From NCBI GenBank assembly GCA_963666425.2, contig OY762825.2:544001-608000 (forward strand): a stretch of DNA of 64,000 nucleotides, given 5' to 3'. Made by a program: the position numbers and the translations under genes. This stretch comes from Bacillota bacterium. GTDB taxonomy: Bacteria; Bacillota; JAAYKD01. The notes under the pieces were generated by a model. It saw only the letters and a program-made list of their open reading frames with translations. It ran no database searches and had not been told where the DNA came from. Shown here piece after piece: positions 16,190-36,019 of this stretch. Positions within the stretch are counted from its first letter, which is position 1. The number at the start of each line of letters is the position of its first letter.

Positions 16190-16958
16190 GAGACGGGGTA
16201 CGCGGAAGGGTTCTGTGGGATAGCAGTTGCATTTTCAGCACTAAGCGATGGAATAATGATTGCATAGCGCATAACGATGGAATGGCGCCAGAACATCCAT
16301 CACATTTTCAGCGCCATGCGATGGAATAATGATTGCATAACGCAAAACAATGAAGCTACACCAGGACGGGGCACGCGGAACGGTCAAGACCGTTCCCTAC
16401 CTTGCGAGTTGGTTGAAGTAACACCGCAATGTAATGAAGCTACGCCGGGAACGCAGGGACGCCGGGACGGGGCACGCGGAACGGTCAAGACCGTTCCCTA
16501 CCTTGCGAGTTGGTTGAAGTAACACCACAAAACAATGAAGCTACGCCAAAACGGGTTACGCGGAACGGTCAAGACCGTTCCCTACCTTGCGAGTTGGTTG
16601 AAGTAACATCGCAATGTTGCGTGTAGGTTGAAGTAACACCGCAATACAATGAAGCTACGCCGGGACGGGGCACGCGGAACGGTCAAGACCGTTCCCTACC
16701 TTGCGAGTTGGTTGAAGTAATACCGCAATGTAATGAAGCTACGCCGGGGCATCCACCACATTTTCAGCACCAAGCGATGGAATAATGATTGCATAACGCA
16801 ATTGCAGGTTGGAGCAATGGAATAATGATTGCATAGCACGAAATAGGTTGGAGCAAATGTAGGGAACGGTCTTGACCGTTCCGCACGGTTCAATTAACAC
16901 CGCAGAACGATAGAGTTACGCCAGGACGGGGCACGCGGAACGGTCAAGACCGTTCCCT
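16190..16958. repeat. REP/BIME-like array 2, left part (six REPs, the last one interrupted by IS110)
   Basis: GCGGAACGGTCAAGACCGTTCCCTAC-CTTGCGAGTTGGTTGAAGTAA units near 16374, 16475, 16559, 16674 and 16934, plus an inverted copy at 16859; linkers shared with array 1. Confidence 0.85.
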
Positions 16959-17059
16959 CGTATATACTAGTAGTGCCAAGGTAACTCATTTACAGGGTAC
17001 AGGAAGCGAGCCAAAGCCACTCTTTAAGTATCCAAGGGGTTTGCCCTTTGTGGTATAAT

Positions 17060-17205
17060 TTTGTCAGGCAGAGGTCAACGTACTGTTCCCTGGGAATCGT
17101 TCCTGTGATGTAGAGTGTTGCCTCTGATCTGACAGAAATCTGCGTATTGGCTGGATAGGGTAAAATCCTTGTATTTCACGCGAGGTTGCAGCTGTCAGCG
17201 TCAGA
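17060..17205 (+). ncRNA. Putative IS110 bridge RNA (target-binding and donor-binding loops); boundaries approximate
   Basis: Stems TGTCAG/CTGACA and CAGAGG(T)CAAC/GTTGCCTCTG enclose ACTGTTCCCT (17082-91), a GGGAA/TTCCT hairpin and ATGTAG (17108-13). A second loop has TGGCT (17148-52) and GCGAG (17180-84), matching the circle junction TGG-CT-CGT. Confidence 0.75.
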
Positions 17206-17248
17206 GAGATCATCCTTTGCCGCATTCCAGTTTGAGGAGTTGCTGTAA

Positions 17249-18421
17249 ATGATTACTTTTGGCGTAGACATCGGTAAATTCCGTCACCAGGCGATCGCGG
17301 TGGACGCCAGTGGTCAAGCGCTGGCTCCCTCGTTTGCATTTGAAAATTCCGAAGAGGGCTTTCAATTGTTTTTGCAGAAGGTCGCTTTTTACCAAAAGCA
17401 AGATGCAATTTGCGTCGGCATGGAAGCCACCGGTCATTACTGGCTGAATTTTTATTGTGTTTTACTCGATTTAGGAATTGAATTGCATGTGGTCAATCCC
17501 CTGCTCACCGACGCCATACGGCGCATGTCTGTCCGTAAAACCAAGACGGATACGGTGGATTGCGGTTATATCGCGGATGTGATCCGCATGGGACGTTATT
17601 CCGACGTAGCGGTACAAACGGAGGATGTCCAGAATTTACGCGAGTTATGCCGTTTCCGCTGTTCTCTGGTTGATGAGATTGCAAAGCACAAAAACCATGT
17701 AATTGGCGTGCTGGATCACCTTTTTCCGGAATATCACAAGCTGTTTTCAGATATTTTCGGTAAAACTTCGCTGGAGTTGCTCAGCAAGTATCCGTCACCG
17801 GATGCCATTCTGAAGCTCGGTACAAAGCGGTTGGCTGATTTTTTAGCGAAGCATTCCCGCGGCAGTTTCGGTGAGGAAAAAGCGCTCGAGATCCGCAGCG
17901 CCTGCAGACACACTGTTGGTGTGAATAGAGCGAACGCTGCTCTATGCTTTGAATTACACCAAACCGTGGATCTGATTCAATTCATTGAAGAACAGATTGA
18001 CGCAATTGAGAATAAGATTGAGCAGATCTATTCCCAATGTGAATGCTATCTGGATACCATTATTGGTGTTGGAGTCACCTCGGCTGCGGTGATCTACTCG
18101 GAAATCGGCAATATTGATAATTTCGAAAATCCAAAGAAATTGGCGGCATTTGCCGGTATTGACCCTTCGATTAAGCAATCCGGTAATTTCACTTCAACGC
18201 ACAACACGATGTCGAAGCGAGGCTCACCTTATCTGCGCAGAGCGCTCTGGAATGCCGCAACGGTTGCCGCGCAAAAAGATCCGGTCATGTCTGCTTTTTA
18301 CCAGAAGAAACGCGACGAAGGAAAAGATTATATGACGGCAATTGGAGCTGTTACACATAAATTATGCAACATTGTTTTCGCTGTTTTAAGGGATAAAAAG
18401 CCTTATGTTCCCAGAATATAA
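17249..18421 (+). CDS. IS110-family DEDD recombinase/transposase
   Basis: GVDIGK, MEATG, KTKTDTVD RuvC-like DEDD residues; C-terminal AFAGIDPSIKQSG and KRGSPYLRRAL. Confidence 0.96.
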   Translation: MITFGVDIGKFRHQAIAVDASGQALAPSFAFENSEEGFQLFLQKVAFYQKQDAICVGMEATGHYWLNFYCVLLDLGIELHVVNPLLTDAIRRMSVRKTKTDTVDCGYIADVIRMGRYSDVAVQTEDVQNLRELCRFRCSLVDEIAKHKNHVIGVLDHLFPEYHKLFSDIFGKTSLELLSKYPSPDAILKLGTKRLADFLAKHSRGSFGEEKALEIRSACRHTVGVNRANAALCFELHQTVDLIQFIEEQIDAIENKIEQIYSQCECYLDTIIGVGVTSAAVIYSEIGNIDNFENPKKLAAFAGIDPSIKQSGNFTSTHNTMSKRGSPYLRRALWNAATVAAQKDPVMSAFYQKKRDEGKDYMTAIGAVTHKLCNIVFAVLRDKKPYVPRI

Positions 18422-18456
18422 TTTTCGTTTTGCCACTTGACGTTTGATAGCTGGCT

Positions 18457-18535
18457 ACCTTGCGAGTTGGTTGAAGTAACACCGCAATATTGCGAGTTGG
18501 TTGAAGTAACGCCGTAAAACGATGAAGCTACGCCT
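18457..18535. repeat. Array 2, right remnant beyond the IS110
   Basis: TTGCGAGTTGGTTGAAGTAAC twice, then GATGAAGCTACGCC, the same linkers as 16400-16750. Confidence 0.8.
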
Positions 18536-18541
18536 TATCCC

Positions 18542-19921
18542 TTACGCGACGATACTTCTCACCCAGCTGTCGGTTCTCAGCATGATAAAACCGATGACCG
18601 ATTTGATACCGTCGGCCATGTTCACGATCAGGTAAACAGTCACAATCGGCAGTAAGGTATAGCGTGAAAGAAAAAAGGCCAAAGGGACGCTGACGATACA
18701 GGTGAAAACACTGTCAAAGAAAAAGGTGATGATCGTTTTGCCGCCGGAGCGCAGTGTAAAGTAAACACTGTGGTTAAAGGCGTGCAGCGGGAAGGCCATG
18801 GCCGACACAATCAGGAAGCTGGATGCCATTTGGCGAACCGCAGCTTCTGTATTATAAATCAGCGGAATATAGGAAGAAAACAGGGCTAATAGACAACCCA
18901 GCACCACGGAAGTGCCGACATTGAGGAAAATCAATTTATGATCGGTATCTTTGGCTTTAGCGAAATCACCAGCTCCCAACTGCTGCCCGACCAAAACGCC
19001 AACCGCATTGCCCATCGCCATAAAAAAGATGGCAAATAGTTGAGAAATCGTGGATGAAATATTCAGCGCGGCTACCACTGTGATACCGCGGAAGGCATAG
19101 TTGGCGGTGAGTGAGGCAGTCGCGATCGACCAGACAAATTCGTTGAGCAGTAAGGGAGAACCTTTGATGGCAATGCCTTTGAGGATTTTCGCCGGGATGT
19201 AGGCACTTTGGAAGGCTTTACGCACAAAGTAGAAATTGTCTCGCTGCAGCCAGGTTGCCCCAACAATGAAACCTGCTTCTACCAAACGGGATATTACGGT
19301 GGCTATGGCGGCTCCCTCTACGCCCAAACGCGGGAAACCGAAGCTGCCAAAAATGAGCAGGTAGTTGCCGACCAAGTTGGTCAAAACAGCCAGGATGCTG
19401 CCGGTCATGGCAATGACGGTGTTGCCGCTTTCACGTAAGGTGGAAGAAAAACATTGCGAAATCACAAATGGCACGATACCCCAAAGCATGATCTTGAGAT
19501 ATTGCCTGGCTAACGTCATGGTTAACGCCAGATCCGCCGCGTCCCCCGCTGTCTCATTCAGGAAGAGATGAATCAATTGCGTGTCCCAAATATTGAAGAC
19601 CAAAATCGCCGCAAAACAAATGGCAATACCAAAGAGAATTTTGTAGCGGAATGTGTGCATGACGCCTTCGTAATCCTTGCGGCCAAAGAATTGAGCCGAG
19701 AAAATAGAGGCGCCGGAAAGTCCACCGAAAATTGTAACATTTAAGACGAAGAAAAATTGACTGCAGATTGCCACGGCAGAAATCGCTTCTGTGCCGAGCC
19801 GACCCACCATGACATTATCCAGTAAATTGACAATACTGGTGATTCCTTGCTGAATGATCATGGGAACGACCAGCAGCAGGACCATCTTATAAAAGGCTTT
19901 ATTACCGATAAATTTTTTCAT
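18542..19921 (-). CDS. MATE family efflux transporter
   Basis: NLLDNVMVGRLG, PRLGVEGAAIATVISR; about 12 TM segments. Confidence 0.93.
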   Translation of the reverse strand: MKKFIGNKAFYKMVLLLVVPMIIQQGITSIVNLLDNVMVGRLGTEAISAVAICSQFFFVLNVTIFGGLSGASIFSAQFFGRKDYEGVMHTFRYKILFGIAICFAAILVFNIWDTQLIHLFLNETAGDAADLALTMTLARQYLKIMLWGIVPFVISQCFSSTLRESGNTVIAMTGSILAVLTNLVGNYLLIFGSFGFPRLGVEGAAIATVISRLVEAGFIVGATWLQRDNFYFVRKAFQSAYIPAKILKGIAIKGSPLLLNEFVWSIATASLTANYAFRGITVVAALNISSTISQLFAIFFMAMGNAVGVLVGQQLGAGDFAKAKDTDHKLIFLNVGTSVVLGCLLALFSSYIPLIYNTEAAVRQMASSFLIVSAMAFPLHAFNHSVYFTLRSGGKTIITFFFDSVFTCIVSVPLAFFLSRYTLLPIVTVYLIVNMADGIKSVIGFIMLRTDSWVRSIVA

Positions 19922-24300: not shown

Positions 24301-24882
24301 TTTAGCCATTTCCTGATAATCGATCAGTTCAATTTTTTGAATTTCATGCGAAGTGCGAAAACCGTCAAAGAAATGCAGGAAGGGCAGGTGAGCTTTTAAT
24401 GTGGCAAGGTGCGCCACCAAAGCCAGGTCCATCACTTCCTGCACGGAAGCGGAAGCCAACATGACAAAGCCGGTCTGACGGGTGGCCATCACATCCTGAT
24501 GATCACCAAAGATCGATAAGGCATGGGTAGCAATGGCGCGCGCCGAAACATGGAAGACCGTCGGCAGCAATTCACCGGCAATTTTATACATATTGGGGAT
24601 CATCAGGAGTAAGCCTTGCGAAGCGGTAAAAGTGGTAGTCAGAGCGCCGGCGCTCAAAGCACCGTGCACTGCTCCGGCAGCGCCGGCTTCCGATTGCATT
24701 TCGGTGATTTTCAGGGTTTGGCCGAATAAGTTCTTGCGGCCGGCAGCAGCCCACTCATCGCAGACTTCCCCCATAGTGGTGGAAGGGGTAATCGGATAGA
24801 GCGCCGCAACATCACTAAAGGCGTAAGCTACATGGGCAGCCGCTGTATTGCCATCGATGGTTTGTTTTGTGACCGGCATCAT
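21355..24882 (-). CDS. nifJ: Pyruvate:ferredoxin (flavodoxin) oxidoreductase, homodimeric
   Basis: YPITPS, EMQSEAGAAG, two CxxCxxCxxxCP ferredoxin motifs, GDGWAYDIG. Confidence 0.97.
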   Translation of the reverse strand: MMPVTKQTIDGNTAAAHVAYAFSDVAALYPITPSTTMGEVCDEWAAAGRKNLFGQTLKITEMQSEAGAAGAVHGALSAGALTTTFTASQGLLLMIPNMYKIAGELLPTVFHVSARAIATHALSIFGDHQDVMATRQTGFVMLASASVQEVMDLALVAHLATLKAHLPFLHFFDGFRTSHEIQKIELIDYQEMAKLIDWDEVKAFRARALNPEHPVQHGTAQNADIYFQGREAANSYYQAVPAIVTEMMQKVGELTGRHYQPFDYVGAADASEIIVAMGSACEAIEETVNYLTAQGQKIGLIKVRLYRPFSSQDFLRVLPKTVQKIAVLDRTKEPGSLGEPLYLDVCAVFANRTEHPLIVGGRYGLGSKDFTPTMIHAVYQNLHRAQPKTGFTVGIQDDLTHTSLPLSEKIDTAPAGAYSCLFYGLGSDGTVGANKNSIKIIGDHTDLYAQGYFVYDSKKSGGITVSHLRFGKTPIQSPYLIGAADLIACHNPSFVDKYDMAADLKTGGIFLLNSPWTAAEMAEKLPAHLKRALAEKQARFYTVDALKVAREVGMGNRINVVMQSCFFHIANVIPAVQAIDYIKQAVVKTYGKKGEKVVAMNFAAIDLSIAGLQEIPVPAAWRDLPEPAKIKEDLPLFISQIAQPMAALQGDQLPVSIFPADGSYPVGTTAYEKRGIAVDIPVWQMEKCIQCNQCSFVCPHAAIRPYLADAADLSQKPAGLMSKAAIGKEAAGKQFIIQVSPLDCTGCGNCVEVCPAKDKALLLQNLETVKEAEIAKYEFVEKLPRTENQFNAATVKGSQFNLPLFQFSGACAGCGETPYIKVVTQLFGDRMVIANATGCSSIYGGSAPSNPYCSNQKGQGPAWGNSLFEDNAEYGFGMAVAYIQRRDQLAELVTQLLTTPIIGEVKTALENWLQHRMDAKLSRAYGEQLKALLPEAMVKVPAAEQKAFAEILERSDLFVKPSIWIFGGDGWAYDIGYGGLDHVLAQNLDVNVLVLDTEVYSNTNGQASKATPTGALAKFAATGKKNKKKDLGMMAMSYGYVYVASVNMGANQSQFVKALAEAESYNGPSLLICYSPCINHGINMSESQLEAKKATLAGYWPLYRYNPERTAADENPFQIDYQAAQADFKTFLMSEVRYSALAKQFPQEAERLFAKAETEANERFAMHSKMAKQPD

Positions 24883-24982
24883 AATCTCTCCTTTTCCTGA
24901 TTGATTCGCATTTCTGTCATCTGCATCTGTGGAACTTTGAGTCGGACTTATGCAAGGTTATTCTTTTTTGGCTTCGATATAA

Positions 24983-25810
24983 TTACTGCTGCTTTTTCAT
25001 AAAATCAGCATTGGAAACAGCGTAGCTCACCAGGGTCGCCGCAGCGGAAACATTGAGTGATTCCACTTTTTCCGCCATGGGGATGGTGATAAATTGCTGA
25101 CAAATCTCTCGTACTTCCGGAGAAATACCGACGCTTTCGTTACCCAAGACAAAAATCGCTTTTTCGGCAAATTTCGTGCCAAAAAGGTTTTTGCCTTTGG
25201 CATCACCGGATAAACCGTAGATGGTAAAACCGGCTGTGACAGCCTGCTGCAGCGCTTCCAACAAGGTGGGGTGGCGGTAAATATTCGCCTGGAAAACGGT
25301 TGCAGCCGCTGCTTTGATTACGAAGGGCTGATTGATGCTGGGCATACCCGCTTCCGGAATCAGCAGGCCATCCAAACCGGAGGCCACCGCAGAACGGATG
25401 GTCATACCCAAATTCGCCGGGGTAGTGATGCCATCCAGGGCAATCAAACGGGCATTGGCAGGCGCTGTAGCCAGCCAGGCTGACCAATTGTTATCGATTT
25501 TGCCAATTACATCCGCAACAACACCCTGATCTTCATCTTTGTTTTTGGAAATCCGGGAAAGTTGCTCGCGGTCCATTTCTTTAACCGTGATTTTGCGTTG
25601 GTTTGCCAGCTGCACAATTTCACGAATCGCTTCGGAACGGCTGTCTTTAGCAACCAAAACCCGTTCCACTTTCACATCGGCATGGAATGCCAGCAGATCA
25701 TGCACTGTTTTTTTACCGTAGACGGTAATGAATTGTTTGAAATATTCTTTCTTGGCTAAGTATTCCGGAGAATCTACAAATTGCCGCTCCGTTGTTTTGT
25801 CTTTTGTCAT
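24983..25810 (-). CDS. SpoU/TrmH-family RNA methyltransferase (RlmB-like)
   Basis: PANLGMTIRS, VLGNESVG, IPMAEKVESLNVS; start ATG 25810. Confidence 0.88.
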   Translation of the reverse strand: MTKDKTTERQFVDSPEYLAKKEYFKQFITVYGKKTVHDLLAFHADVKVERVLVAKDSRSEAIREIVQLANQRKITVKEMDREQLSRISKNKDEDQGVVADVIGKIDNNWSAWLATAPANARLIALDGITTPANLGMTIRSAVASGLDGLLIPEAGMPSINQPFVIKAAAATVFQANIYRHPTLLEALQQAVTAGFTIYGLSGDAKGKNLFGTKFAEKAIFVLGNESVGISPEVREICQQFITIPMAEKVESLNVSAAATLVSYAVSNADFMKKQQ

Positions 25811-25854
25811 TTTTTCCTCCTCCTGATCGTTCCCTTTGGAAAACGATCTCACGT

Positions 25855-25886
25855 AAAAAGGCAGGGAGTAATTTCTCCTGCCTTTC
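25855..25886. terminator. Terminator-like hairpin
   Basis: AAAAAGGCAGGGAG-TAATTT-CTCCTGCCTTT. Confidence 0.65.
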
Positions 25887-25895
25887 TGTTACGCA

Positions 25896-27044
25896 TTATT
25901 TAACTTGAAACTCAAAACTCAATTGATAAACCGTTCCTGCCTGCAATGCTACACAGCGAGAACCGATCGGATAGACACTGACCTCGTTTTGGTCGGCGGT
26001 TTTCTCCGAATCTCCCGTTGGCTGTAAACTGAAGACAGGTAAAGAAACCGTAGAATCGGCAGGAATCACGATTCCTTGCAAGAGTTCGACGAGTTCCTCC
26101 CCGGTTCCTTCTATTTTTAATTCTGTCAGAGATCCTTCTGCGGTGGCCGCTATGAGTTCATAAGCTAAGGGACTGTGCTCCGCCGCCGTTAAAATTGCTT
26201 CCTGCAGCGTCTGATCCAGTTCAATTTGCACGCTGCGCGGCTCTGGCTGCACCAAAGCGGTTGGCGGTGCTGCCGCTAAACCATAGAGCGCAGTCGGTTC
26301 TGACAAGCCATCCGGGTCAGCCGTACTGTTTGGTGCCGCCGCACTGTCCGTGGCAGCAACGCTTGCTTCCGGCAGCAGTGTGTCGTTAGTCACAGTTGGA
26401 TCGGTGAGGTTTGCTTCGGGAGGTTTAGCCAACATTTTACTGCCGCCTGTCGCTTCCTTCACGGGTGCTGTCTCGCTGTCACTAGGCGGTTCACAGGCTG
26501 TTGGCACTCCCGGCAGAGACGGAATGGCTCTTTTCATGTCTGCACTATTCGCATCCTGCTCTGTTTTTGCTGTCTGCTCCGCGCTTTCGTTTGTATCCGC
26601 CGCCGCGTCATATTCTTTTGCTGTATCCGTGATGCCAACCTCAGCCGTCGTTTGCTCCGGCCGAACCAAAAGACCCGAAGTTTGGATCAGCATCGCAACC
26701 GCGGCGATTGCCGCGATCGCGGCGGTAGTCCAAAACCGCCAGTGCCGCTTCCAGCTTTTTGCCTGAAGCGCTTTCGTTTTGGCGCTGTCGCCTGTCTTGT
26801 TCGCTGCCGCAACAGCCGTCATTTTTTCGGCTGCGATAGCCGCCATAATACTGCTATGCAGATTTGGTGGAAGTTCCGTCGGATGATCCGCTCTGATTGC
26901 AGCTTGAACTTTCTGCAGCCAAAGAATTTCCTGACGGCAAGCGGCGCATTCCGCTAAATGCTGTCTGAGTTCTGGGGGCCATTGTTCTTCCGGCAGGGAT
27001 AAAACGGCAGATAATTCTGCTCTGCAATCCTGACAATTCATCAT
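25896..27044 (-). CDS. Zinc-binding (zf-HC2) membrane anti-sigma factor
   Basis: CQDC...HLAECAAC, one TM segment, acidic low-complexity extracellular part; overlaps the sigma stop. Confidence 0.82.
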   Translation of the reverse strand: MMNCQDCRAELSAVLSLPEEQWPPELRQHLAECAACRQEILWLQKVQAAIRADHPTELPPNLHSSIMAAIAAEKMTAVAAANKTGDSAKTKALQAKSWKRHWRFWTTAAIAAIAAVAMLIQTSGLLVRPEQTTAEVGITDTAKEYDAAADTNESAEQTAKTEQDANSADMKRAIPSLPGVPTACEPPSDSETAPVKEATGGSKMLAKPPEANLTDPTVTNDTLLPEASVAATDSAAAPNSTADPDGLSEPTALYGLAAAPPTALVQPEPRSVQIELDQTLQEAILTAAEHSPLAYELIAATAEGSLTELKIEGTGEELVELLQGIVIPADSTVSLPVFSLQPTGDSEKTADQNEVSVYPIGSRCVALQAGTVYQLSFEFQVK

Positions 27045-27673
27045 TCAGAACCTCCTTTCTGATCAGTATGACGCAAATACCCTTGAAAAAGTTCCGCCCG
27101 GCTGAGAACGATCTGCCGCAGCGCGCTGCGGGCACGGAAAATACGGGATTTGACCGTACCCAATTGACATTGCAGCAGCTCTGCAATTTCTTCGTAACTT
27201 CTGTTTTCGATATCGCAGAGGATCAAGATGATTTTTTGATCCGGGTTGAGCAACTTTAAGGCTTCCTGCACCAAAGACTGCAAATCGGAGCGTTCTAAAA
27301 GTTCCTGCGGCAGCGGGGAAGCATCGCTTGGCTCCGTCTCTTTTTCAAAAACATCTTTCTGATTTAAACTAAAGGCCACGACCTTCTCCACCCGCTGCCG
27401 TTTTCGCAAAAAATCGAGGCAGGCGTTGGTAGCCAGGCGGTAGAACCAGGTATTGAACGTGGATTCTCCTTTAAAACTGTCGAGGGAACGGTAGAGTTTC
27501 AGGAAAATCTCCTGCGTCATTTCCAAAGCATCATCCGGATTGGCCGCCATCCGATAAGCCAATTGATAGACTTTTTTTTCGTAGAGATGAACCAATTGCT
27601 CAAAGGCCGCTTCGTCTTTGCGCTGAGCCGCCAAGACCAGCTGAGCGAGTTCAGTCGCTTCGTCCTGTATCAT
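27041..27673 (-). CDS. ECF RNA polymerase sigma factor
   Basis: AFEQLV, QEIFLKLY, FNTWFYRLATN, SYEEIA...GTVKSRIFRAR; start ATG 27673. Confidence 0.93.
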   Translation of the reverse strand: MIQDEATELAQLVLAAQRKDEAAFEQLVHLYEKKVYQLAYRMAANPDDALEMTQEIFLKLYRSLDSFKGESTFNTWFYRLATNACLDFLRKRQRVEKVVAFSLNQKDVFEKETEPSDASPLPQELLERSDLQSLVQEALKLLNPDQKIILILCDIENRSYEEIAELLQCQLGTVKSRIFRARSALRQIVLSRAELFQGYLRHTDQKGGSE

Positions 27674-27762
27674 CGCGTTCCCTCCTTTCCCCCCTGCCTT
27701 GCGGCAATCGGACAATTTCTTCTGCCATCTTATCATGCGCTGATTTGCCGCGCAAGTAGCTT

Positions 27763-29235
27763 TTAGCGCTGCAGGGTGATGATCTGCGTTGCAATTCGCT
27801 GCACGAAAGCAGCGTCATGTTCCACGAAGACAATCGTAGGCGCATCCTGTAAAATAATCTCTTCAATCTGCATGCGCGACAGCAGATCAATATAATTCAG
27901 CGGTTCATCCCAGAGATAAAGGTGCGCTTTTTCACAGAGGCTGGCCGCGATCACCACTTTTTTCTTCTGTCCCATGCTATAGGTCTGCATCGGTTTTTCA
28001 AATTGCAGGCGGGAAAAATCCAGCTTGCGTAAGATCGTTTTGAACAAGCTTTCATCGATACCGTTTTGCTCGGCAAAAGCTTTTAAATCACCTTGCAAAA
28101 AAGACGTATCCTGCGGCACATAAGAGATTTTCAGCTGGCTGCCGCGGTAAATGACGCCTTGATATGGGATATCTTTATCCAAAATTAACTTGAGCAGGCT
28201 GGTTTTCCCGCAGCCGTTTTTACCCGTCAAAGCGATGCGGTCGCCGCGGTGCACTGCCAGGCGGATGTTCTGACAGACGATGCGCTGATCGTAGCTGACG
28301 CTGACATCCCGCAGTTCCAGCAAGGTATCTGCATGATAACGCAGGGGATGGATGGCAAGCTTTTCTGCCGTTTCCCGATTTTTCAGCAGCTTCGCTTTTT
28401 CTTCAATGCTGCGCTGCACGCGCTTTTCTGTGTTCTTGCTGCGCTTCATCATTTTTGCTGCCTGATGCCCGATGTAGCCGCGGTCGACCGGACCTTGCCC
28501 TATCTTTGTGTTCTCAATTTGCTGGGACCAGACGGCAGTTGCTTTGGCCAATTCCTGCAAACGCCCGATTTCCTTTTTCTGTTTCTCATTTTCGTCCCAT
28601 TCAAATTGATCCTGCCGGTTTTTATTCAGCCACCAGGAGGAGAAATTGCCGCGTTGGATTTCAATATTGGCTTGATTGATCGCCAGGATATGATCGACAC
28701 AATGGTCCAAAAAGCTGCGGTCATGCGAAACCAGAATAAAACCGGCTTTGCGCTGTAAATAATCGCTGACGATCTGCCGTGCTTTCAGATCGAGATGATT
28801 GGTCGGCTCATCAATCAATAAGAAGGAATCCTGCCGTAAAAAGAGTGCCGCCAGCAATATTTTTGTCTTTTCTCCTTCGCTTAAGGTGGAAAAAGGCCGC
28901 AGCAAAACGTCGTCTGTCAAATCCAAGAGGGAAATTTCCCGATTGATTTGCCAAACTTGCGCTTCCCCGCAGATCTCTGTCATGATTTGCTGCGTGTTTT
29001 TTTCCTGATCGGGAACCGCAAAGGGAAAATACTGAAAATCTACAGCGGCCGAAATTGTTCCCTGATAAGCATAATCGCCTAAAAGCAAGCGCAGAAAGGT
29101 CGTTTTCCCCCTGCCATTGCGGCCGACAAAGCCCAGTTTCCAATTGCTGTCCAATTGCAGATTGACCTGCTTAAAGATCGTATCATAGCTGCCTTCATAG
29201 GCAAAGGTTAAATTTTGTATGGCAATCAAGGACAT
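27763..29235 (-). CDS. Lsa-like ABC-F ribosomal protection protein
   Basis: Two ABC domains and no TM segments; N-terminus MSLIAIQNLTFAYEGSYD...WKLGFVGRNGRGKTT and linker DRGYIGHQAAKMMKRSK resemble the Lsa family; start ATG 29235. Confidence 0.85.
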   Translation of the reverse strand: MSLIAIQNLTFAYEGSYDTIFKQVNLQLDSNWKLGFVGRNGRGKTTFLRLLLGDYAYQGTISAAVDFQYFPFAVPDQEKNTQQIMTEICGEAQVWQINREISLLDLTDDVLLRPFSTLSEGEKTKILLAALFLRQDSFLLIDEPTNHLDLKARQIVSDYLQRKAGFILVSHDRSFLDHCVDHILAINQANIEIQRGNFSSWWLNKNRQDQFEWDENEKQKKEIGRLQELAKATAVWSQQIENTKIGQGPVDRGYIGHQAAKMMKRSKNTEKRVQRSIEEKAKLLKNRETAEKLAIHPLRYHADTLLELRDVSVSYDQRIVCQNIRLAVHRGDRIALTGKNGCGKTSLLKLILDKDIPYQGVIYRGSQLKISYVPQDTSFLQGDLKAFAEQNGIDESLFKTILRKLDFSRLQFEKPMQTYSMGQKKKVVIAASLCEKAHLYLWDEPLNYIDLLSRMQIEEIILQDAPTIVFVEHDAAFVQRIATQIITLQR

Positions 29236-29254
29236 TATTTTCACCTCATATCGT

Positions 29255-29504
29255 AAAAAGACTGCAAGAAAGCAGCTTCTTGCAGTCTGGTACAAGGTCA
29301 GGAAGCGGTGCCGAGCATTCTTTTTGCAAATTCGGCTTCCCTGCTGATGTAAGGCTGATTCTACTCTCTTGCTTTTGACACAAAGAATCAACGGCTCTGC
29401 TGCCGTTTTATTTCTTTGTCTGATTAGAGCAAGATTAGCTGCGCATCCTTACATCTCCTATCGTCAATTTATTCTATTTTATCATTGGCAGTCTCGACTG
29501 TCAA
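29255..29504 (-). promoter_or_regulatory. Promoter and ribosome-dependent attenuator leader of the ABC-F gene
   Basis: TTGACA-17-TAAAAT (29476-29504); AGGAG then uORF ATG CGC AGC TAA (29435-46); GATGTAAGG/CCTTACATC pairing; terminator AGACTGCAAGAA/TTCTTGCAGTCT plus T-run (29255-88). Confidence 0.75.
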
Positions 29505-30046
29505 GAATGCTTTGCCAGCCAATAAAGATAGGATGGATGCATCAAGCCGGTAGGCGCATAATATTCGTCTTTCAGGTAGCAAAAGCCCAACCCTTGCAGG
29601 ACTTTTTTGGAACCGCTGTTGTTGGGGTGGTGACCGGCAAAAAGCGCTTTGGCCTGCAGTACTTCTGCGGCATAAATCATGGCGCGCCGCGCCGCTTCGG
29701 TTGCCAAACCTTTTCCCCATTGCGCACGGACTAAATGCACCCCAATTTCCAGGATTCCCTGCTCCTGATCATAAGGGCGTAAGCCGCAGCAGCCTAAGAA
29801 TTCTCCCGTTGCCAAAAGAAAGATCGGCCAATACTGCATCTGATGATTTTGCTGATTTTCAATTTCTTTTGCCAGTCTGGCGCTGATCTCCGCTTCGCTG
29901 AAAAGGCCGCTGGCGCAAATCCAATGCGTCACAGCGGCGTCACCCCATAAGCTGCGCGCCAACGACAGATCTTCCCGGTGCCAGTATCGGAAGCCGATGC
30001 GTTCGCTTTGCATAAAATATTCTGTTGGCATTTCATTTCGCCTCAC
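29501..30046 (-). CDS. GNAT (RimJ/RimL-like) acetyltransferase
   Basis: GCCGLRP, EIGVHL, WGKGLATEAA, NNSGSKKVLQGLGF; exact start uncertain. Confidence 0.87.
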   Translation of the reverse strand: MRRNEMPTEYFMQSERIGFRYWHREDLSLARSLWGDAAVTHWICASGLFSEAEISARLAKEIENQQNHQMQYWPIFLLATGEFLGCCGLRPYDQEQGILEIGVHLVRAQWGKGLATEAARRAMIYAAEVLQAKALFAGHHPNNSGSKKVLQGLGFCYLKDEYYAPTGLMHPSYLYWLAKHS

Positions 30047-30101
30047 TCTGCTGCTATTCGACTCATTCTAACAAATTAATAGAATTTTGACAAGCTTTCT
30101 C

Positions 30102-30130
30102 TTGATTTTTTTTGCAATTTCCACTAGAAT
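30102..30130 (+). promoter_or_regulatory. Putative promoter of the GH2 gene
   Basis: TTGATT-17-TAGAAT followed by an AGGAGG RBS. Confidence 0.5.
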
Positions 30131-30160
30131 TAAAGAAATGCGTTTAGGAGGCTGACTCAA

Positions 30161-31858
30161 TTGAATAATCCTCGTCAGGAATACCCACGGCCGCAGCTGG
30201 TACGACCGATTTGGCAAAACCTTAATGGTACCTGGAACTTTGAAATGGATCCCGGGAAAAGCGGACGAGCGCGCGGATTACCCGAAGCAGAACATCTCCG
30301 GCAAGAAATTCTGGTCCCCTTTTGCCCGGAAAGCAAACTCTCCGGCATCGGCTGCACAGATTTTATGCCCTGCGTCTGGTATTTGCGCACGATCACAGTT
30401 GAGCAGGATTGGCTGCTCAATCACCGCCGCACACTGCTGCATTTTGGCGCCTGTGATTACCGCACGGAAGTTTGGCTCAACGGCCATGCGGTCGGTAGTC
30501 ACAGCGGCGGCTTCGTCTCTTTTTCTTTTGATCTGACTGACTGGCTGGTTCCGGGAGAAAACCGCATCATCGTCTGCGCCGAAGACGATTTACGCAGCCG
30601 GCAGCAGCCAAGTGGCAAGCAGAGCCGCAGTTATAATTCGTACGGTTGTTATTACACCAGAACCACTGGCATCTGGCAGACGGTTTGGTTGGAAAACCTG
30701 CCTGACGCTGCGATTGTTACCACCCGCTATACCCCGCTGCTTGCTGAACAGTCTCTGTTAATCGAAGCGGTTTGTGCCAACGCTCATGGTATGACCTGCA
30801 AAGCGGAAGCGTTTTTTGCCGGTAGAACCGTAGGCAGTGCCGAAGCAGTCGTTTCCGGCAAGAAAGCTGTGCTCTGTTTACGGCTGCATGAACTGCAGCT
30901 ATGGGCTCCCGGTCAGGCGAATTTATATGATCTGCGCCTGACACTCGGCGAGGACAGCGTAGAAAGCTACTTTGGCATGCGGGATATTGTTTATCAGCAA
31001 GGGAAACTGCTGCTAAACGGCCAAGTTTTATTCCAACGTCTGGTGCTGGACCAGGGTTTCTATCCCGATGGCATTTATACTGCCGCCGACGATGAAGAAT
31101 TGAAAAGGGATATCCTACTCTCGCAGGCGATGGGCTTTCAGGGCGCGCGTCTGCATCAGAAGGTTTTTGAGCCGCGCTTTCTGTATCATTGTGATCGTCT
31201 TGGTTATTTGGTTTGGGGAGAATACGGCGATTGGGGGCTCGATTTAGCTCAGGCCGAAGCCTGGCAGAGCTTTCTGCCGGAGTGGCTGCAAATTCTGGAA
31301 CGCGATTACAATCATCCGGCTCTGGTGGGATGGTGTCCCTGCAATGAAACGCAAGAAGATCAGAACCAAGCTTTAGTGCATATGGCGGTTGCTCTCACAC
31401 ACGCTTATGATCAAACCAGACCGGTGATTGATACTTCCGGTTGGACCCATGTCAGGGGGTTGAGTGATCTCGTCGATACCCATGATTATGAACAAAACCC
31501 CGCTGTTTTTCAAGCCCGCTATGATAAGCTGATGCTTGGCGAAACGGTAGCCATGGTCAACGGCGAACCGGATCGGCCCACTTTTATGAGTGAATATGGC
31601 GGCATCTGGTGGTGCCCTGCGGCAGCGGACGGCTGGGGTTACGGCGAGCGCCCGCGCAGCGAAGAGGAGTTTTTAGACCGTTTCAGCCGACTGACGCGTG
31701 CCATCCTGCAAAACCCGAATTTCTGCGCACTCTGTTATACGCAGCTGACCGACGTGGAGCAAGAAAAAAACGGACTCTATACCGATCGGCGGCATCCCAA
31801 ATTTGATCCGCAGCGGATTGCTGCCGTGCTGCAAGAAAAAGCTGCGATTGAATCTTAA
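30161..31858 (+). CDS. Glycoside hydrolase family 2 (beta-galactosidase/glucuronidase-like)
   Basis: EYPRPQ, LHFGA, TGIWQTVWLE, LDQGFYPDG, WCPCNE, SEYGG, YTQLTDVEQE. Confidence 0.92.
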   Translation: MNNPRQEYPRPQLVRPIWQNLNGTWNFEMDPGKSGRARGLPEAEHLRQEILVPFCPESKLSGIGCTDFMPCVWYLRTITVEQDWLLNHRRTLLHFGACDYRTEVWLNGHAVGSHSGGFVSFSFDLTDWLVPGENRIIVCAEDDLRSRQQPSGKQSRSYNSYGCYYTRTTGIWQTVWLENLPDAAIVTTRYTPLLAEQSLLIEAVCANAHGMTCKAEAFFAGRTVGSAEAVVSGKKAVLCLRLHELQLWAPGQANLYDLRLTLGEDSVESYFGMRDIVYQQGKLLLNGQVLFQRLVLDQGFYPDGIYTAADDEELKRDILLSQAMGFQGARLHQKVFEPRFLYHCDRLGYLVWGEYGDWGLDLAQAEAWQSFLPEWLQILERDYNHPALVGWCPCNETQEDQNQALVHMAVALTHAYDQTRPVIDTSGWTHVRGLSDLVDTHDYEQNPAVFQARYDKLMLGETVAMVNGEPDRPTFMSEYGGIWWCPAAADGWGYGERPRSEEEFLDRFSRLTRAILQNPNFCALCYTQLTDVEQEKNGLYTDRRHPKFDPQRIAAVLQEKAAIES

Positions 31859-31897
31859 AAAACAGACCTTCTCTTTTAGAGAGAAGGTCTGTTTTTT
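31857..31897. terminator. Bidirectional terminator
   Basis: A-run, CAGACCTTCTCT-TTTAG-AGAGAAGGTCTG, T-run, between convergent genes. Confidence 0.8.
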
Positions 31898-32291
31898 AAA
31901 TCTCTTTCGCAATGATCTGGGTCACCAATTGATGTTCTTTTTTAAAACGCTCATATTCCGCAAAGGAGCGGAAGGGTTGTTCACGGAAACTGTTTTTTCC
32001 TCCCGACTTGATGCCGGAGATGTCATAACCTAAATCCAGGACGGATTTTCGATCCTTGGAAAAATAGACACACAAATCCAGATCGAAAAAGCCTCCCTTC
32101 CACTCCACCAACTGCAAACCGCGGCTGCGATGAATGATGTATAAGGCGGTACCGCTATCCGGCAGAACCGCGCGTTTGGGGCGATTATGAAAGAGCAAAT
32201 TCTCCGCTGCTGGCTGATTTTGAGTGTGGCTGATGCGGTAAACCACCAAAGCAGCACAAAGCAGACTGAGAATTATTTTTACGATGATCAT
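31896..32291 (-). CDS. Hypothetical protein with N-terminal signal/TM segment
   Basis: 131-aa ORF overlapping the upstream stop (ATGA); hydrophobic N-terminus. Confidence 0.55.
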   Translation of the reverse strand: MIIVKIILSLLCAALVVYRISHTQNQPAAENLLFHNRPKRAVLPDSGTALYIIHRSRGLQLVEWKGGFFDLDLCVYFSKDRKSVLDLGYDISGIKSGGKNSFREQPFRSFAEYERFKKEHQLVTQIIAKEI

Positions 32292-32947
32292 GCTCTCACT
32301 CCGTCATTCAGTTTCTCCGCCAGCTCCGCCACCGCTTGCAGCGCTTTTTCATCCTGAGCCGCTACGAGGTGATCTGTATCGAGAGAAACTGCTTCGCCGA
32401 CCAATTTGGCATTCATTTCGTGCAGAAGAATCCTGGCAGTATCGCGCGCTGTGTCGGCCTTGCCGTCGCCGCCACCGCACAGGATGATGCCGCCGCGTTT
32501 CGGTTTGATCTGCGGTTTGATCTTGCGGATTCTCCGGTTGGCATAATAGGTCTGTAAACGGGAGGTGAGTGCCAGCAAAGCCCCGGATAATTCAGAAAAC
32601 TGGATGGCAGAGGCGATTATCACATTGTCGCAGCTTTCAATTTCCCGATAAATTTCCTGCATCTCATCCTGGATGGAACAGCCTGTATGACTCCAGCAAT
32701 AGCGGCAGTCGATGCAGGGACTGATCTTGCTGCCATAGGCGTTGACAACATGCACCTCACCATTCAATTGTTCTTTCAGTTTTTCAATTAAGTAGACTGT
32801 GTTGCCATTTTTGCGGGGAGAACCGTTGAAGATCAGCGTGCGCGGACAGGGCGCCGTTTGGTTCGACAAGAGCGGCTGCGGCTGCAAGCTATCCCGCTGT
32901 AGCCCGGGCTGTTCCGAGGTGAGTTTGATTTCTTCCGGCATTTTCAT
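32288..32947 (-). CDS. Iron-sulfur flavoprotein / flavodoxin-family (FMN reductase fold)
   Basis: NGSPRKNGNT and CIDCRYC-x5-C...DEMQEI. Confidence 0.87.
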   Translation of the reverse strand: MKMPEEIKLTSEQPGLQRDSLQPQPLLSNQTAPCPRTLIFNGSPRKNGNTVYLIEKLKEQLNGEVHVVNAYGSKISPCIDCRYCWSHTGCSIQDEMQEIYREIESCDNVIIASAIQFSELSGALLALTSRLQTYYANRRIRKIKPQIKPKRGGIILCGGGDGKADTARDTARILLHEMNAKLVGEAVSLDTDHLVAAQDEKALQAVAELAEKLNDGVRA

Positions 32948-33136
32948 ACACCCTTTCTCTATTAAGAATTTCGATATGAGTAGGAATTTGTTTTCTTTAT
33001 GCTAAGATGTTAGCATGGCTTTTCAGAAAAAGCAATGGCCAGAATATTTTACCTTAAGCAGTTGCCGCTTTGGCGGCAGGAAATTACCGGAGAAAATGGA
33101 ATAGGATAACAAACAAGGTTGAAATGAGGGAAAGCG

Positions 33137-33979: not shown

Positions 33980-33989
33980 CGAGCAATTG

Positions 33990-34031
33990 AAAAAAGGGCT
34001 GTAGCGAAACGAAAATCGCTACAGCCCTTTT
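33990..34031. terminator. Bidirectional terminator hairpin
   Basis: AAAAAGGGCTGTAGCGA...TCGCTACAGCCCTTTT. Confidence 0.75.
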
Positions 34032-34107
34032 CTTCAATTAGTATAACTTCCGCCGGAAGACGCATCAGTACTTTCGCGTTCGATACTGAGTAACATTGTA
34101 TTAAGTA

Positions 34108-35936
34108 CTTTTCGGAACAGTCAAGACTGTTCCCTACATTTAGGCAATGTATATTACTGTTTTGTTAGGGTATTATTGCGCATTTATATACCATTGCAAT
34201 GCGATTATAATCATTCTGCAAGGTAGGGAATGGTCTTGACCATTCCGCGTAACCGAGCGATGTGAGATTGTTATGCATAGAAATTTGTTTATTTTTCGGA
34301 ACAGTCAAGACTGTTCCCTACATTTAGGCAATGCTTATTACTGTTTTGTTAGGGTATTATTGCGCATTTATATACTATTGCAATGCGATTATAATCATTT
34401 TGCAAGGTAGGGAATGGTCTTGACCATTCCGCGTAACCGAGCGATGTGAGATTGTTATGCATAGAAATTTGTTTACTTTTCGGAACAGTCAAGACTGTTC
34501 CCTACATTTAGGCAATACTTATTACTGTTTTGTTAGGGTATTATTGCACATTTATATACCATTGCAATGCGATTATAATCATTTTGCAAGGTAGGGAATG
34601 GTCTTGACCATTCCGCGTAACCGAGCGATGTGAGATTGTTATGCATAGAAATTTGTTTACTTTTCGGAACAGTCAAGACTGTTCCCTACATTTAGGCAAT
34701 GCTTATTACTGTTTTGTTAGGGTATTATTGCGCATTTATATACCATTGCAATGCGATTATAATCATTTTGCAAGGTAGAGAATGGTCTTGACCATTCCGC
34801 GTAACCGAGCGATGTGAGATTGTTATGCATAGAAATTTGTTTACTTTTCGGAACAGTCAAGACTGTTCCCTACATTTAGGCAATGTATATTACTGTTTTG
34901 TTAGGGTATTATTGCGCATTTATATACCATTGCAATGCGATTATAATCCTTCTGCAAGGTAGGGAATGGTCTTGACCATTCCGCGTAACCGAGCGATGTG
35001 AGATTGTTATGCATAGAAATTTGTTTACTTTTCGGAACAGTCAAGACTGTTCCCTACATTTAGGCAATGCTTATTACTGTTTTGTTAGGGTATTATTGCA
35101 CATTTATATACCATTGCAATGTATATTACTGTTTTGTTAGGATATTATTGCGCATTTATATACCATTGCAATGCGATTATAATCATTTTGCAAGGTAGGG
35201 AATGGTCTTGACCATTCCGCGTAACCGAGCGATGTGAGATTGTTATGCATAGAAATTTGTTTGCTTTTCGGAACAGTCAAGACTGTTCCCTACATTTAGG
35301 CAATGTATATTACTGTTTTGTTAGGGTATTATTGCGCATTTATATACCATTGCAATGTATATTACTGTTTTGTTAGGGTATTATTGCGCATTTATATACC
35401 ATTGCAATGCGATTATAATCATTTTGCAAGGTAGGGAATGGTCTTGACCATTCCGCGTAACCGAGCGATGTGAGATTGTTATGCATAGAAATTTGTTTAC
35501 TTTTCGGAACAGTCAAGACTGTTCCCTACATTTAGGCAATGTATATTACTGTTTTGTTAGGGTATTACTGCGCATTTATATACCATTGCAATGCGATTAT
35601 AATCATTTTGCATGGTAGGGAATGGTCTTGACCATTCCGCGTAACCGAGCGATGTGAGATTGTTATGCATAGAAATTTGTTTACTTTTCGGAACAGTCAA
35701 GACTGTTCCCTACATTTAGGCAATGCTTATTACTGTTTTGTTAGGGTATTATTGCGCATTTATATACTATTGCAATGCGATTATAATCCTTCTGCAAGGT
35801 AGAGAATGGTCTTGACCATTCCGCGTAACCGAGCGATGTGAGATTGTTATACATAGAAATTTGTTTACTTTTCGGAACAGTCAAGACTGTTCCCTACATT
35901 TAGGCAATGTATATTACTTTTTTGTTAGGGTATTAT
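34108..35936. repeat. Array 3: near-perfect tandem repeat (7 x 184 bp, 2 x 236 bp and a partial unit), two inverted REPs per unit
   Basis: CGGAACAGTCAAGACTGTTCCCTAC starts at 34113, 34297, 34481, 34665, 34849, 35033, 35269, 35505, 35689 and 35873; each full unit also has GTAGrGAATGGTCTTGACCATTCCG. Confidence 0.95.
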
Positions 35937-36019
35937 GGTTTTTGTACATCTAGTGCTGTTAATTTTGCGCGGCGCTTTTTAAACTGTTTTGCGAGAGCCG
36001 CTTTTTCATTTTACTGTAT

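What the first reader, a model, noticed from the sequence alone, without database searches (positions are those of the whole stretch)
17082..17113. Target guide matches the distant 184-bp array exactly and could wobble-read all three REP variants
Seen: the guides together spell ACTGTTCC-CT-ACAT, identical to all ten REP-A copies at 34113-35899 (GACTGTTCCCTACAT), while the occupied site is ACCGTTCC-CT-ACCT. The REP variants differ at just two left-target positions (TG, CG, CA), where the guide has UG. Inference: pairing with the bottom strand gives U-A/G-C, U.G/G-C or U.G/G.T, so one guide could address the whole family. The tandem array is then a set of ten empty perfect landing sites, acting as a safe harbour or a decoy.
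Basis: partly seen in the sequence, partly recalled or inferred. Interest (0 to 1): 0.8.

Follow-up and report, generated by a model that had tools for sequence, protein, structure and literature searches.

The report
IS110 bridge-RNA guide reading REP variants
The flagged 32 bases are the target-reading loop of the guide RNA of a ten-copy IS110-type jumping gene that lands in the host's short palindromic repeats, tolerating a U-G wobble as already described for two related elements, so it is a neat but ordinary example.

Summary
Window 17082-17113 runs from the left target guide (ACUGUUCC+CU) to the right target guide (AUGU+AG) in the target-binding loop of a bridge RNA. The RNA lies 5' of an IS110-family transposase, in an element at 16959-18454 (1,496 bp).

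- **Perfect sites:** the guide-coded 14-mer occurs 10 times in the genome as an empty site, all in the 34.1-35.9 kb tandem array.
- **Copies:** the genome holds 10 intact copies. Two sit in perfect TG-type REP sites, eight in CG-type sites (rU:dG wobble) and none in 40 CA-type sites. Three of the ten also carry a U:C mismatch at the third right-target base.
- **Sister species:** it has the same guide in a CG site.
- **Guide identity:** 19 relatives share the loop architecture, with compensatory stem changes and guides that co-vary with their flanks.
- **Precedent:** wobble reading of REP targets is in print for IS621 (rG:dT) and ISPpu10 (U.G).
- **Decoy or safe-harbour idea:** no support found. 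A contig from a close strain crosses the locus with one repeat unit, and the sister species lacks the array there.

Verdict: a new member of a known kind.

The parts
16937..16956 (+). CG-type REP hairpin GGAACGGTCAAGACCGTTCC. Its 3' arm (16949-16956, ACCGTTCC) is the left target half of the occupied site.
   Evidence: Sequence; junction alignment of 10 copies.
16957..16958 (+). Left copy of the CT core dinucleotide.
   Evidence: CT flanks both ends of all 10 of 10 copies.
16959..18454 (+). IS110-family insertion sequence, 1,496 bp, with no terminal inverted repeats. One of 10 full-length copies in the genome.
   Evidence: blastn against the genome. All ten copies are 1,496 bp and differ pairwise at 0-16 positions.
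16961..16966 (+). TATATA in the left end. Inferred -10 half of a promoter formed only at the circle junction.
   Evidence: Read from the sequence. Relatives have CGTATAAT at this place. Function is inferred by analogy to IS621 and ISPpu10.
17051..17059 (+). TGGTATAAT, an extended -10-like element just upstream of the bridge RNA stem.
   Evidence: Read from the sequence. Not tested.
17060..17137 (+). Target-binding stem-loop of the bridge RNA. It has two stacked stems (17070-17074/17121-17125 and 17076-17080/17116-17120), an internal loop and an apical hairpin.
   Evidence: Single-sequence fold. Consensus fold of 20 homologous loops, with compensatory changes in 12 of 14 pairs.
17082..17091 (+). 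Left target guide ACUGUUCC plus core CU. Base 17084 (U) is the wobble position.
   Evidence: It co-varies with the left flank in relatives. It is unpaired in the consensus structure.
17092..17104 (+). Apical hairpin of the target-binding loop (GGGA/UCCU).
   Evidence: All 4 pairs are kept, 3 of them with both-sided changes.
17108..17113 (+). Right target guide AUGU plus AG (complement of the core). The upstream bases 17105-17107 (GUG) could extend it.
   Evidence: The guide at this position matches the right flank in L016, L051, L053 and L030.
17140..17191 (+). Donor-binding loop. Stem CUGC/GCAG; left donor guide GGCUGG(AU) at 17149-17156; right donor guide CGCGAG at 17179-17184.
   Evidence: Comparison with relatives. 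AGCUGG versus AGCCGG in the loop tracks AGCTGG versus AGCCGG at the right end. Assignment is by analogy and partial covariation.
17249..18421 (+). Transposase/recombinase, 390 aa.
   Evidence: Pfam DEDD_Tnp_IS110 at 2.5e-40 and Transposase_20 at 8.2e-26. PDB sequence hits to ISCro4 (5.4e-21) and IS621 (1.1e-20) transposases.
18437..18442 (+). TTGACG in the right end. Inferred -35 half of the circle-junction promoter, 16 nt from TATATA once the ends are joined.
   Evidence: Sequence. TTGAC(A/T) sits at the same place in relatives' right ends. Function is inferred.
18455..18460 (+). Right copy of the CT core plus the right target half ACCT.
34106..35936 (+). Tandem array with a 184-bp unit; two units are 236 bp through an internal 52-bp duplication. 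Each unit has a TG-type REP (+). 8 of the 9 intervals between successive TG-type REPs also hold a CA-type REP (-) that matches the target pattern. The ten TG units carry the ten perfect empty target sites. The array lies between convergent genes (TIM-barrel gene 33137-33979 on +, ftsZ-like gene 36020-37117 on -).
   Evidence: Tandem Repeats Finder; exact matches; map; Pfam of the neighbouring genes.

Best explanation
Window 17082-17113 is the business end of a bridge RNA: the internal loop, with its apical hairpin, of the target-binding stem-loop. It is encoded in the left end of an active IS110-family insertion sequence (16959-18454).

[quoted passage not shown] Recombination takes place at the CT core.

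The target is the host's REP family. The left target half is the 3' arm of the REP hairpin. The guide is a Watson-Crick match to the rare TG variant. The U at 17084 can also pair with the bottom-strand G of the common CG variant as an rU:dG wobble. The third right-target base lies in the weakly read outer part of the right guide. One RNA therefore serves both TG and CG sites, with either ACAT or ACCT on the right.

The 34-36 kb array is an ordinary REP-doublet tandem array, like a BIME (a cluster of REP repeats). It is variable between strains and built from the TG-type unit, which is why it holds all of the genome's unoccupied perfect sites. Its emptiness is best explained by youth or rapid unit turnover, not by a dedicated role.

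Shown here: the anatomy, guide-target covariation and the natural insertion record. Inferred: the pairing chemistry and the reason the array is empty.
For: **Family**
- Pfam DEDD_Tnp_IS110 plus Transposase_20.
- Sequence hits to the solved IS621 and ISCro4 recombinases.
- D7, E59, D101, D104 and S311 are invariant in 16 homologues.

**RNA**
- In 20 homologous loops, 12 of 14 stem pairs show compensatory changes, and 11 nt on each side of the loop stay unpaired.

**Guides**
- I scanned 63 relatives' loci and hand-picked 24 that showed a candidate pair. In these, the 10-mer at the equivalent loop position matches the left flank ending in CT with 0-1 mismatch in 18. One of those, L036, is a spurious pair, though one search found its true guide-flank pair with 0 mismatches.
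- The right guide matches the right flank in L016, L051, L053 and L030.

**Activity**
- All 10 copies have open 390-aa frames.
- cp0 = cp1 and cp6 = cp7 = cp9 are identical over 1,496 bp yet sit at different loci.
- Flanks differ at all ten copies, so these are ten separate insertions.

**Site use**
- TG-ACAT 2, CG-ACAT 5, CG-ACCT 3, CA 0.
- The same guide sits in a CG-ACAT site in the sister species G001.
- CG is the commonest variant and TG the rarest in both genomes: here 97 versus 12 sites, in G001 52 versus 1.

**Precedent**
- IS621's commonest natural target differs from its guide by an rG:dT pair (PMC11208160 passages).
- ISPpu10's left guide has a natural U.G wobble, and its left target half is one arm of a REP stem-loop (preprint 10.64898/2026.03.19.712850, section 8 and passages).

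**Array youth**
- A 13.9-kb contig of run X23 aligns to 24345-34159 and then continues at 35920. That is one unit instead of ten (table 8, record 23).
- In G001 the ftsZ-like gene abuts the FMN-reductase gene, with no REP and no array between them.
Against: - No experiment here shows that the U guide, rather than another RNA, directed the CG insertions. One copy (cp3) carries C at 17084, and bridge RNAs can act in trans.
- The single-sequence minimum-energy fold pairs a few guide bases with each other. Only the comparative structure leaves them open.
- The X23 bridging contig comes from a short-read assembly, which could have collapsed a tandem repeat.
- Two of two perfect sites outside the array are occupied, yet zero of ten inside it are. 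That is an odd contrast, and 'youth' explains it only by inference.
- No circle-junction joint appeared among the listed rows, but contigs cannot show one and 46 joint rows were not displayed.
Confidence: 0.85

Rival explanations
1. The CG-site insertions were not read by wobble. They were directed in trans by a variant bridge RNA with C at the wobble position, like the one copy cp3 encodes. The U guide would then serve only TG sites.
For: - cp3 (C1:706144) has ACCGTTCC in its guide and sits in a CG site.
- Bridge RNAs supplied in trans work for IS621, and ISPpu10 is described as trans-acting (section heading).
- All copies share identical ends, so any copy could be moved by any RNA.
Against: - C is private to one diverged copy that differs from the others at 9-15 positions.
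- T is ancestral, since the 97%-identical copy in the sister species has T and also sits in a CG site.
- CG sites were hit by at least three distinct sequence lineages of the element.
- A trans C guide would still not explain the ACCT right halves.
- U.G and G.T wobbles at this interface are documented elsewhere.
Confidence: 0.1
2. All insertions went into perfect TG-ACAT sites. The flanking REPs were later converted to the CG or ACCT forms by REP homogenisation.
For: - REP variants differ by paired, compensating changes in both hairpin arms, which suggests concerted evolution.
- At a similar repeat unit, G001 has a CG REP where this genome has a TG REP.
Against: - Copies with 0 differences over 1,496 bp (cp0 = cp1; cp6 = cp7 = cp9) sit in CG sites. 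That leaves no time for two or three coordinated flank changes at each of them.
- Outside the array, TG sites are very rare in both genomes.
Confidence: 0.03
3. The ten-unit array is a selected feature. It would be a safe harbour that gives the element harmless landing sites, or a host decoy that soaks up insertions.
For: - It holds all ten empty perfect-match sites of the genome.
- It lies between convergent gene ends, where insertions should be harmless.
- In two other REP arrays, two copies that differ at 14-15 positions sit in the same array. REP arrays are therefore repeatedly hit.
Against: - 0 of 10 sites are occupied.
- One unit only in a close strain's contig, and no array at this locus in the sister species.
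- Other REP arrays without perfect sites are equally common in the window.
- Nothing distinguishes this array from ordinary REP-doublet arrays.
Confidence: 0.07

Closest known systems
IS621 of Escherichia coli (IS110 family; bridge RNA, Durrant et al. 2024, PMC11208160; structures 8wt6 etc.)
   Same: - DEDD plus Tnp-domain recombinase, and a 5' non-coding RNA with target- and donor-binding internal loops.
- CT core, with the left guide pairing to the bottom strand and the right guide to the top strand.
- It targets REP elements.
- Its commonest natural target differs from the guide-coded one by a wobble (rG:dT at target position 4). Perfect sites are the rare ones: 2 versus 129 in their assay.
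   Different: - Only distant in protein sequence (phmmer E 1e-20, and only the C-terminal ~145 residues align in one stretch). This protein is 390 aa against 328 residues for the solved IS621 chain.
- The wobble here is rU:dG, 6 nt from the core, in an 8-nt left guide.
- The host REP family is different.
- Nothing has been tested experimentally for this element.
ISPpu10 of Pseudomonas putida (preprint 10.64898/2026.03.19.712850)
   Same: - It inserts in REP sites where the left target half is the 3' arm of a stem-loop.
- It has a natural U.G wobble at the left guide-target interface.
- Distal left-guide positions tolerate mismatches, and one right-guide position is flexible.
- It has a junction promoter with the -35 from the right end and the -10 from the left end.
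   Different: - ISPpu10's insertions mapped to identical copies of one sequence. Here the same guide is found in two left variants and two right variants.
- The role of the stem-loop was not tested here.
BIME-2-type REP tandem arrays of enterobacteria
   Same: Alternating, oppositely oriented REP variants with fixed spacers. They are repeated head to tail in variable number between convergent genes.
   Different: - A different REP sequence family and host.
- Here the unit is 184 bp, and one of its two REPs is the perfect target of a resident IS110 element.

Membership tests
IS110 family (bridge-RNA type, RNA encoded 5' of the recombinase) | N-terminal DEDD RuvC-like domain | tested here: met
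   PF01548 at 2.5e-40 over residues 5-160. D7, E59, D101 and D104 are invariant in 16 homologues.
IS110 family (bridge-RNA type, RNA encoded 5' of the recombinase) | C-terminal Tnp domain with the catalytic serine | tested here: inconclusive
   PF02371 at 8.2e-26. S311 in a Q-S-G motif is invariant and aligns with the E-S-G serine of ISCro4. I did not confirm that this is the residue equivalent to IS621 S241.
IS110 family (bridge-RNA type, RNA encoded 5' of the recombinase) | No terminal inverted repeats; the element is flanked by a 2-nt core (CT) on both sides | tested here: met
   The ends CGTATATAC... and ...GATAGCTGG are unrelated. CT is present at both junctions in 10 of 10 copies.
IS110 family (bridge-RNA type, RNA encoded 5' of the recombinase) | Structured non-coding RNA with a target-binding internal loop whose two sides match the two halves of the insertion site on opposite strands | tested here: met
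   Consensus structure with compensatory changes in 12 of 14 pairs. The guide matches its sites with 14 of 14 (TG), 13 of 14 or 12 of 14 bases.
IS110 family (bridge-RNA type, RNA encoded 5' of the recombinase) | Guide-target covariation across relatives | tested here: met
   Left guide versus left flank in 18 of 24 selected loci with 0-1 mismatch. Those 24 were chosen from 63 scanned loci because they showed a candidate pair, and one of the 18 (L036) is a spurious pair, with the true pair found. Right guide versus right flank in 4 loci.
IS110 family (bridge-RNA type, RNA encoded 5' of the recombinase) | Donor-binding loop matching the element's own joined ends | tested here: inconclusive
   GGCUGG versus left donor AGCTGG, and CGCGAG versus CT-CGT, each with one G:T position. 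AGCUGG/AGCCGG tracks the right end in relatives. No structural alignment of this loop was made.
IS110 family (bridge-RNA type, RNA encoded 5' of the recombinase) | Circular intermediate with a junction promoter | not testable with these tools
   TTGACG, 16 nt and TATATA would be formed on joining the ends. The runs laid were assembled contigs, which cannot show circles.
REP / BIME repeats | Short palindromic units in many copies, clustered in arrays outside genes | tested here: met
   364 strand hits, about 182 hairpins, to a strict 20-nt palindrome pattern. Arrays in the window at 3.0-4.5, 16.3-16.9 and 34.1-35.9 kb. Only the two loci studied were checked for being intergenic.
REP / BIME repeats | Association with a RAYT (Y1 transposase) | tested here: inconclusive
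   Three PF01797 matches in the genome. One, at C1:533030-533401, lies among REP-like matches at C1:526-537 kb. Flanking REP pairs were not examined.

The most novel reading that the evidence does not exclude
The U at guide position 17084 may be kept by selection as a deliberately degenerate base. A guide written for the rarest REP variant could then also read the commonest one. IS621 does this with G, and the single C-guide copy here would be a specialist offshoot.

Perfect-match tandem arrays such as 34.1-35.9 kb may also be shaped by the element itself. RNA-guided recombination between two target sites in neighbouring units would expand or contract the array and could erase insertions. That would explain ten perfect sites that are all empty.
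Probability: 0.1. Interest if true: 0.55.

Novelty: new member of a known kind. Interest (0 to 1): 0.3.

Why it matters
It adds a third natural case, after IS621 and ISPpu10, of a bridge RNA whose guide is one wobble away from the REP variant it mostly uses. Unlike those, it comes with a built-in natural record: ten independent insertions, three site classes and one guide variant. That record could help set mismatch rules for bridge recombinases. It changes no concept. The element and its REP family are confined to one genus among the six genomes of this family that were searched.

Tried and rejected
- **Rfam:** a scan of 16800-18600 at E up to 1 gave only three sub-threshold microRNA-family matches lying on the REP hairpins and no bridge-RNA family.
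- **CA versus CG occupancy:** Fisher's test gives P = 0.10 and the hypergeometric test P = 0.039.
- **TG enrichment:** P = 0.19 with all 12 TG sites counted, and 0.013 only if the array is counted as one unit. The second figure depends on an assumption, so I do not rely on it.
- **Laid contigs:**
  - I looked for joints between the array's TG REPs and the element's left end at 16959 and saw none in the listed rows. 46 joint rows and 519 loose-end rows were not shown, and contigs show presence only, so this is no evidence of absence.
  - The two listed joints into 16935 (from 34250 in X21 and 35642 in X24) carry the left flank of copy cp4. They come from that locus and not from the array.
  - Depth over the array could not be used as a copy number.
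- **Other IS110 elements:** I searched the genome for one that might use CA sites. Only the ten copies were found.
- **Nearest relatives:** L009 and L010 (75% and 64% protein identity) gave no usable left junction.
- **Organism name:** I did not try to name the organism.
- **Paper supplements:** they were closed. Position-by-position mismatch tables of the IS621 and ISPpu10 screens may bear on how well U:G is tolerated 6 nt from the core.

Full report
**What is at the coordinates**

Window 16959-18454 is a 1,496-bp insertion sequence. It encodes a 390-aa protein at 17249-18421 with the two Pfam domains of IS110-family recombinases: DEDD_Tnp_IS110 at 2.5e-40 and Transposase_20 at 8.2e-26. The protein also gives sequence hits to the solved ISCro4 and IS621 recombinases, at E 5e-21 and 1e-20. 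The element has no terminal inverted repeats and is bracketed by CT on both sides.

The 290 nt between the left end and the start codon fold into two stem-loops. The flagged 17082-17113 runs from the first base of ACTGTTCC-CT to the last base of ATGT-AG. In between lies a small hairpin, GGGAATCGTTCC, followed by a 4-nt spacer (TGTG).

**Are these really guides?**

I collected 80 loci encoding relatives at 39-75% protein identity. In 63 of them with enough upstream sequence, I searched for 10-mers in the 5' leader that recur further upstream.

Many show such a pair 147-184 nt before the start codon. It ends in CT and is followed in the flank by a conserved element end (CGTATAAT-like). I picked 24 loci because they showed a candidate, so this is a selected subset. 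In 18 of them the loop 10-mer and the flank 10-mer differ at 0-1 positions, while the sequences themselves differ widely: TCACCTCC, AATCCTCC, TATCCCTC, TTCGCTCC, ACGCAAGC and others. One of the 18, L036, is a spurious pair, although one search had found its true guide-flank pair with no mismatch.

The 3' side of the loop is complementary to the right flank after a conserved right end (ATAGC[TC]GG(T)-CT) in L016, L051, L053 (7 nt) and L030.

An alignment of the window's loop with 19 relatives gives a consensus of two stacked stems, an internal loop with 11 unpaired nt on each side, and an apical hairpin. 12 of its 14 pairs show compensatory changes.

This is the architecture described for IS621. 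The single-sequence fold does pair a few of them.

A second loop at 17140-17191 looks like the donor-binding loop. Its GGCUGG and CGCGAG resemble the element's own right end (AGCTGG) and core plus left end (CT-CGT), each with one G:T position. In relatives, AGCUGG versus AGCCGG in the loop tracks the right end.

Joining the ends would create TTGACG, 16 nt and TATATA. This would be a junction promoter like those reported for IS621 and ISPpu10. That function is inferred.

**The match to the array**

The guide-coded target ACTGTTCC-CT-ACAT occurs exactly ten times in the window, once per unit of the 184-bp tandem array at 34106-35936. It occurs nowhere else in the 3.2-Mb assembly as an empty site. 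Chance does not explain this: shuffles expect 0.32 matches at up to 2 mismatches, against 26 found. The ten sites are copies of one unit, however, so they represent one event.

The array lies between the 3' ends of a TIM-barrel (AP_endonuc_2) gene and an ftsZ-like gene. Each unit carries a TG-type REP on the + strand, and 8 of the 9 intervals between successive TG-type REPs also hold a matching CA-type REP on the - strand.

**The natural insertion record**

The genome holds ten full-length copies, all 1,496 bp with open 390-aa frames, and no other IS110-family gene. Their sites are listed below.

| Site class (left variant, right half) | Occupied | Empty |
|---|---|---|
| TG-ACAT (perfect match) | 2 | 10 |
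| CG-ACAT | 5 | 54 |
| CG-ACCT (includes the window's copy) | 3 | 35 |
| CA-ACAT | 0 | 16 |
| CA-ACCT | 0 | 24 |
| CG-ACAA | 0 | 13 |

All ten copies have different flanks. This holds even for copies that are neighbours in the same REP array.

- Neighbours cp1/cp3 differ at 15 positions and cp2/cp8 at 14.
- cp0 = cp1 and cp6 = cp7 = cp9 are identical but sit at different loci.

The element has therefore moved recently, and repeatedly into REP arrays.

Nine of ten copies carry U at 17084. One copy, cp3, carries C, which matches its own CG site.

The sister species G001 has one assembled copy at 97% identity, with the same U guide, in a CG-ACAT site. Its REP counts are TG 1, CG 52 and CA 11. Four genomes of other genera in the family have neither the REPs nor the element among those searched.

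**Reading the record**

- **CG sites.** Insertion into CG sites under a U guide is what an rU:dG wobble predicts. It has direct precedent in two elements:
  - IS621's guide codes ATCGGGC-CT, but 129 of the 173 insertion sites mapped in the assay are ATCAGGC-CT, explained by an rG:dT pair.
  - ISPpu10's left guide has a natural U.G wobble 'mirroring' IS621. A C-to-U guide change that creates a G.U wobble keeps activity, and its left target half is one arm of a REP stem-loop, as here.
- **ACCT right halves.** These place C opposite U, a real mismatch. It lies in the outer part of the right guide, which in IS621 is optional: a 4-nt native guide versus a 7-nt extended one.
- **CA sites.** These would need a second wobble 5 nt from the core, and none is occupied. 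P = 0.039 by a hypergeometric draw of ten from 149 sites, and P = 0.10 by Fisher's test. That is suggestive, not decisive.
- **A related relic.** A decayed 85%-identical relic of a left end lies next to a CA-type REP at C1:1593425-1593538. Its guide region is gone, so it says nothing about the present guide.

**The array as harbour or decoy**

Nothing supports a special role.

- None of the ten sites is occupied.
- Elsewhere, at C1:1590167-1593388, a two-unit stretch built from the same REP pair has both TG sites occupied and the CA site between them empty. TG units are therefore genuine landing sites.
- In a close strain (run X23, which holds 0.64 of the sampled words), a 13.9-kb contig aligns up to 34159 and resumes at 35920. 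That is exactly one unit (table 8). The caveat is that a short-read assembly might collapse a tandem repeat.
- In the sister species, the ftsZ-like gene adjoins the FMN-reductase gene, with no REP, array or TIM-barrel gene between them.

The array therefore looks like a young, strain-specific expansion, or a rapidly turning-over one. That is the simplest reason it is empty.

**Rivals**

- Trans action of a cp3-like C guide cannot be excluded. C is private to one diverged copy, though, and T is ancestral by the G001 outgroup.
- Post-insertion conversion of REPs is contradicted by identical copies sitting in CG sites.

**Comparison and verdict**

Every family feature that I could test is met, except those needing experiments (circle formation, the catalytic serine). 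The wobble-tolerant reading of REP variants, the hairpin-arm target and the junction promoter are all in print for IS621 and ISPpu10. This is a new member of a known kind. It carries a tidy natural insertion record, and its interest is modest.

Noticed in passing
Loci L011, L012, L014, L016, L017, L046, L053, L063, L076 and others (relatives of the element): Many relatives carry guides for (T)CACCTCC-CT-like targets. Read away from the element, the left flank starts with AGGAGG. In 9 of 13 loci checked, a start codon follows within a few bases (7-15 nt from the junction) and opens a long frame. This clade seems to insert at the 5' edge of Shine-Dalgarno sites, and the window's element has been retargeted to a REP.
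   Followed up: partly
G000 C1:706144-707684 (copy cp3, outside the window): This is the only copy with C instead of T at the wobble position of the left guide (equivalent to window 17084), which makes it a perfect match to its own CG-type site. There are 27 variable positions among the 1,496. The chance that one falls on this base is about 0.018.
   Followed up: partly
G000 C1:1593425-1593538 (outside the window): A decayed relic, 85% identical, of a REP plus the first ~84 nt of the element's left end. It abuts a CA-type REP in target orientation, with a degenerate junction.
   Followed up: partly
G000 C1: 92794-96338, 706144-709507, 1537815-1541611, 1590167-1593388: Eight of the ten copies occur as same-orientation pairs, 170-750 bp apart, inside REP arrays. 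The flanks differ within each pair, and two of the pairs differ at 14-15 positions within the element. These are repeated independent hits, not duplications.
   Followed up: partly
window 17149-17154 and 17179-17184: The presumed donor guides each differ from the element's own ends at one position, in a way that gives an rG:dT pair: GGCUGG versus AGCTGG, and CGCGAG versus CT-CGT. Relatives have the Watson-Crick versions.
   Followed up: no
G000 C1:533030-533401, C1:435734-436066, C8:4493-4825: Three Y1_Tnp (PF01797) matches. The first lies among REP-like repeats about 11 kb upstream of the window, so it is a candidate REP-associated transposase.
   Followed up: no
window 33046-36018 versus G001 C28 (L002): The TIM-barrel gene and the array together are missing at this locus in the sister species. 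There the two flanking genes lie about 140 bp apart.
   Followed up: partly
G000 contigs C3, C5, C7, C10, C15 and others: The small contigs range from 22% to 63% G+C, against 47% for the main contig, and contamination is given as 6.85%. Some small contigs may be foreign. C17 carries a copy of the element and REPs, so it belongs to the organism.
   Followed up: no
window 34880-35593: Two array units are 236 bp instead of 184 bp, through a 52-bp internal duplication of the AT-rich spacer.
   Followed up: no
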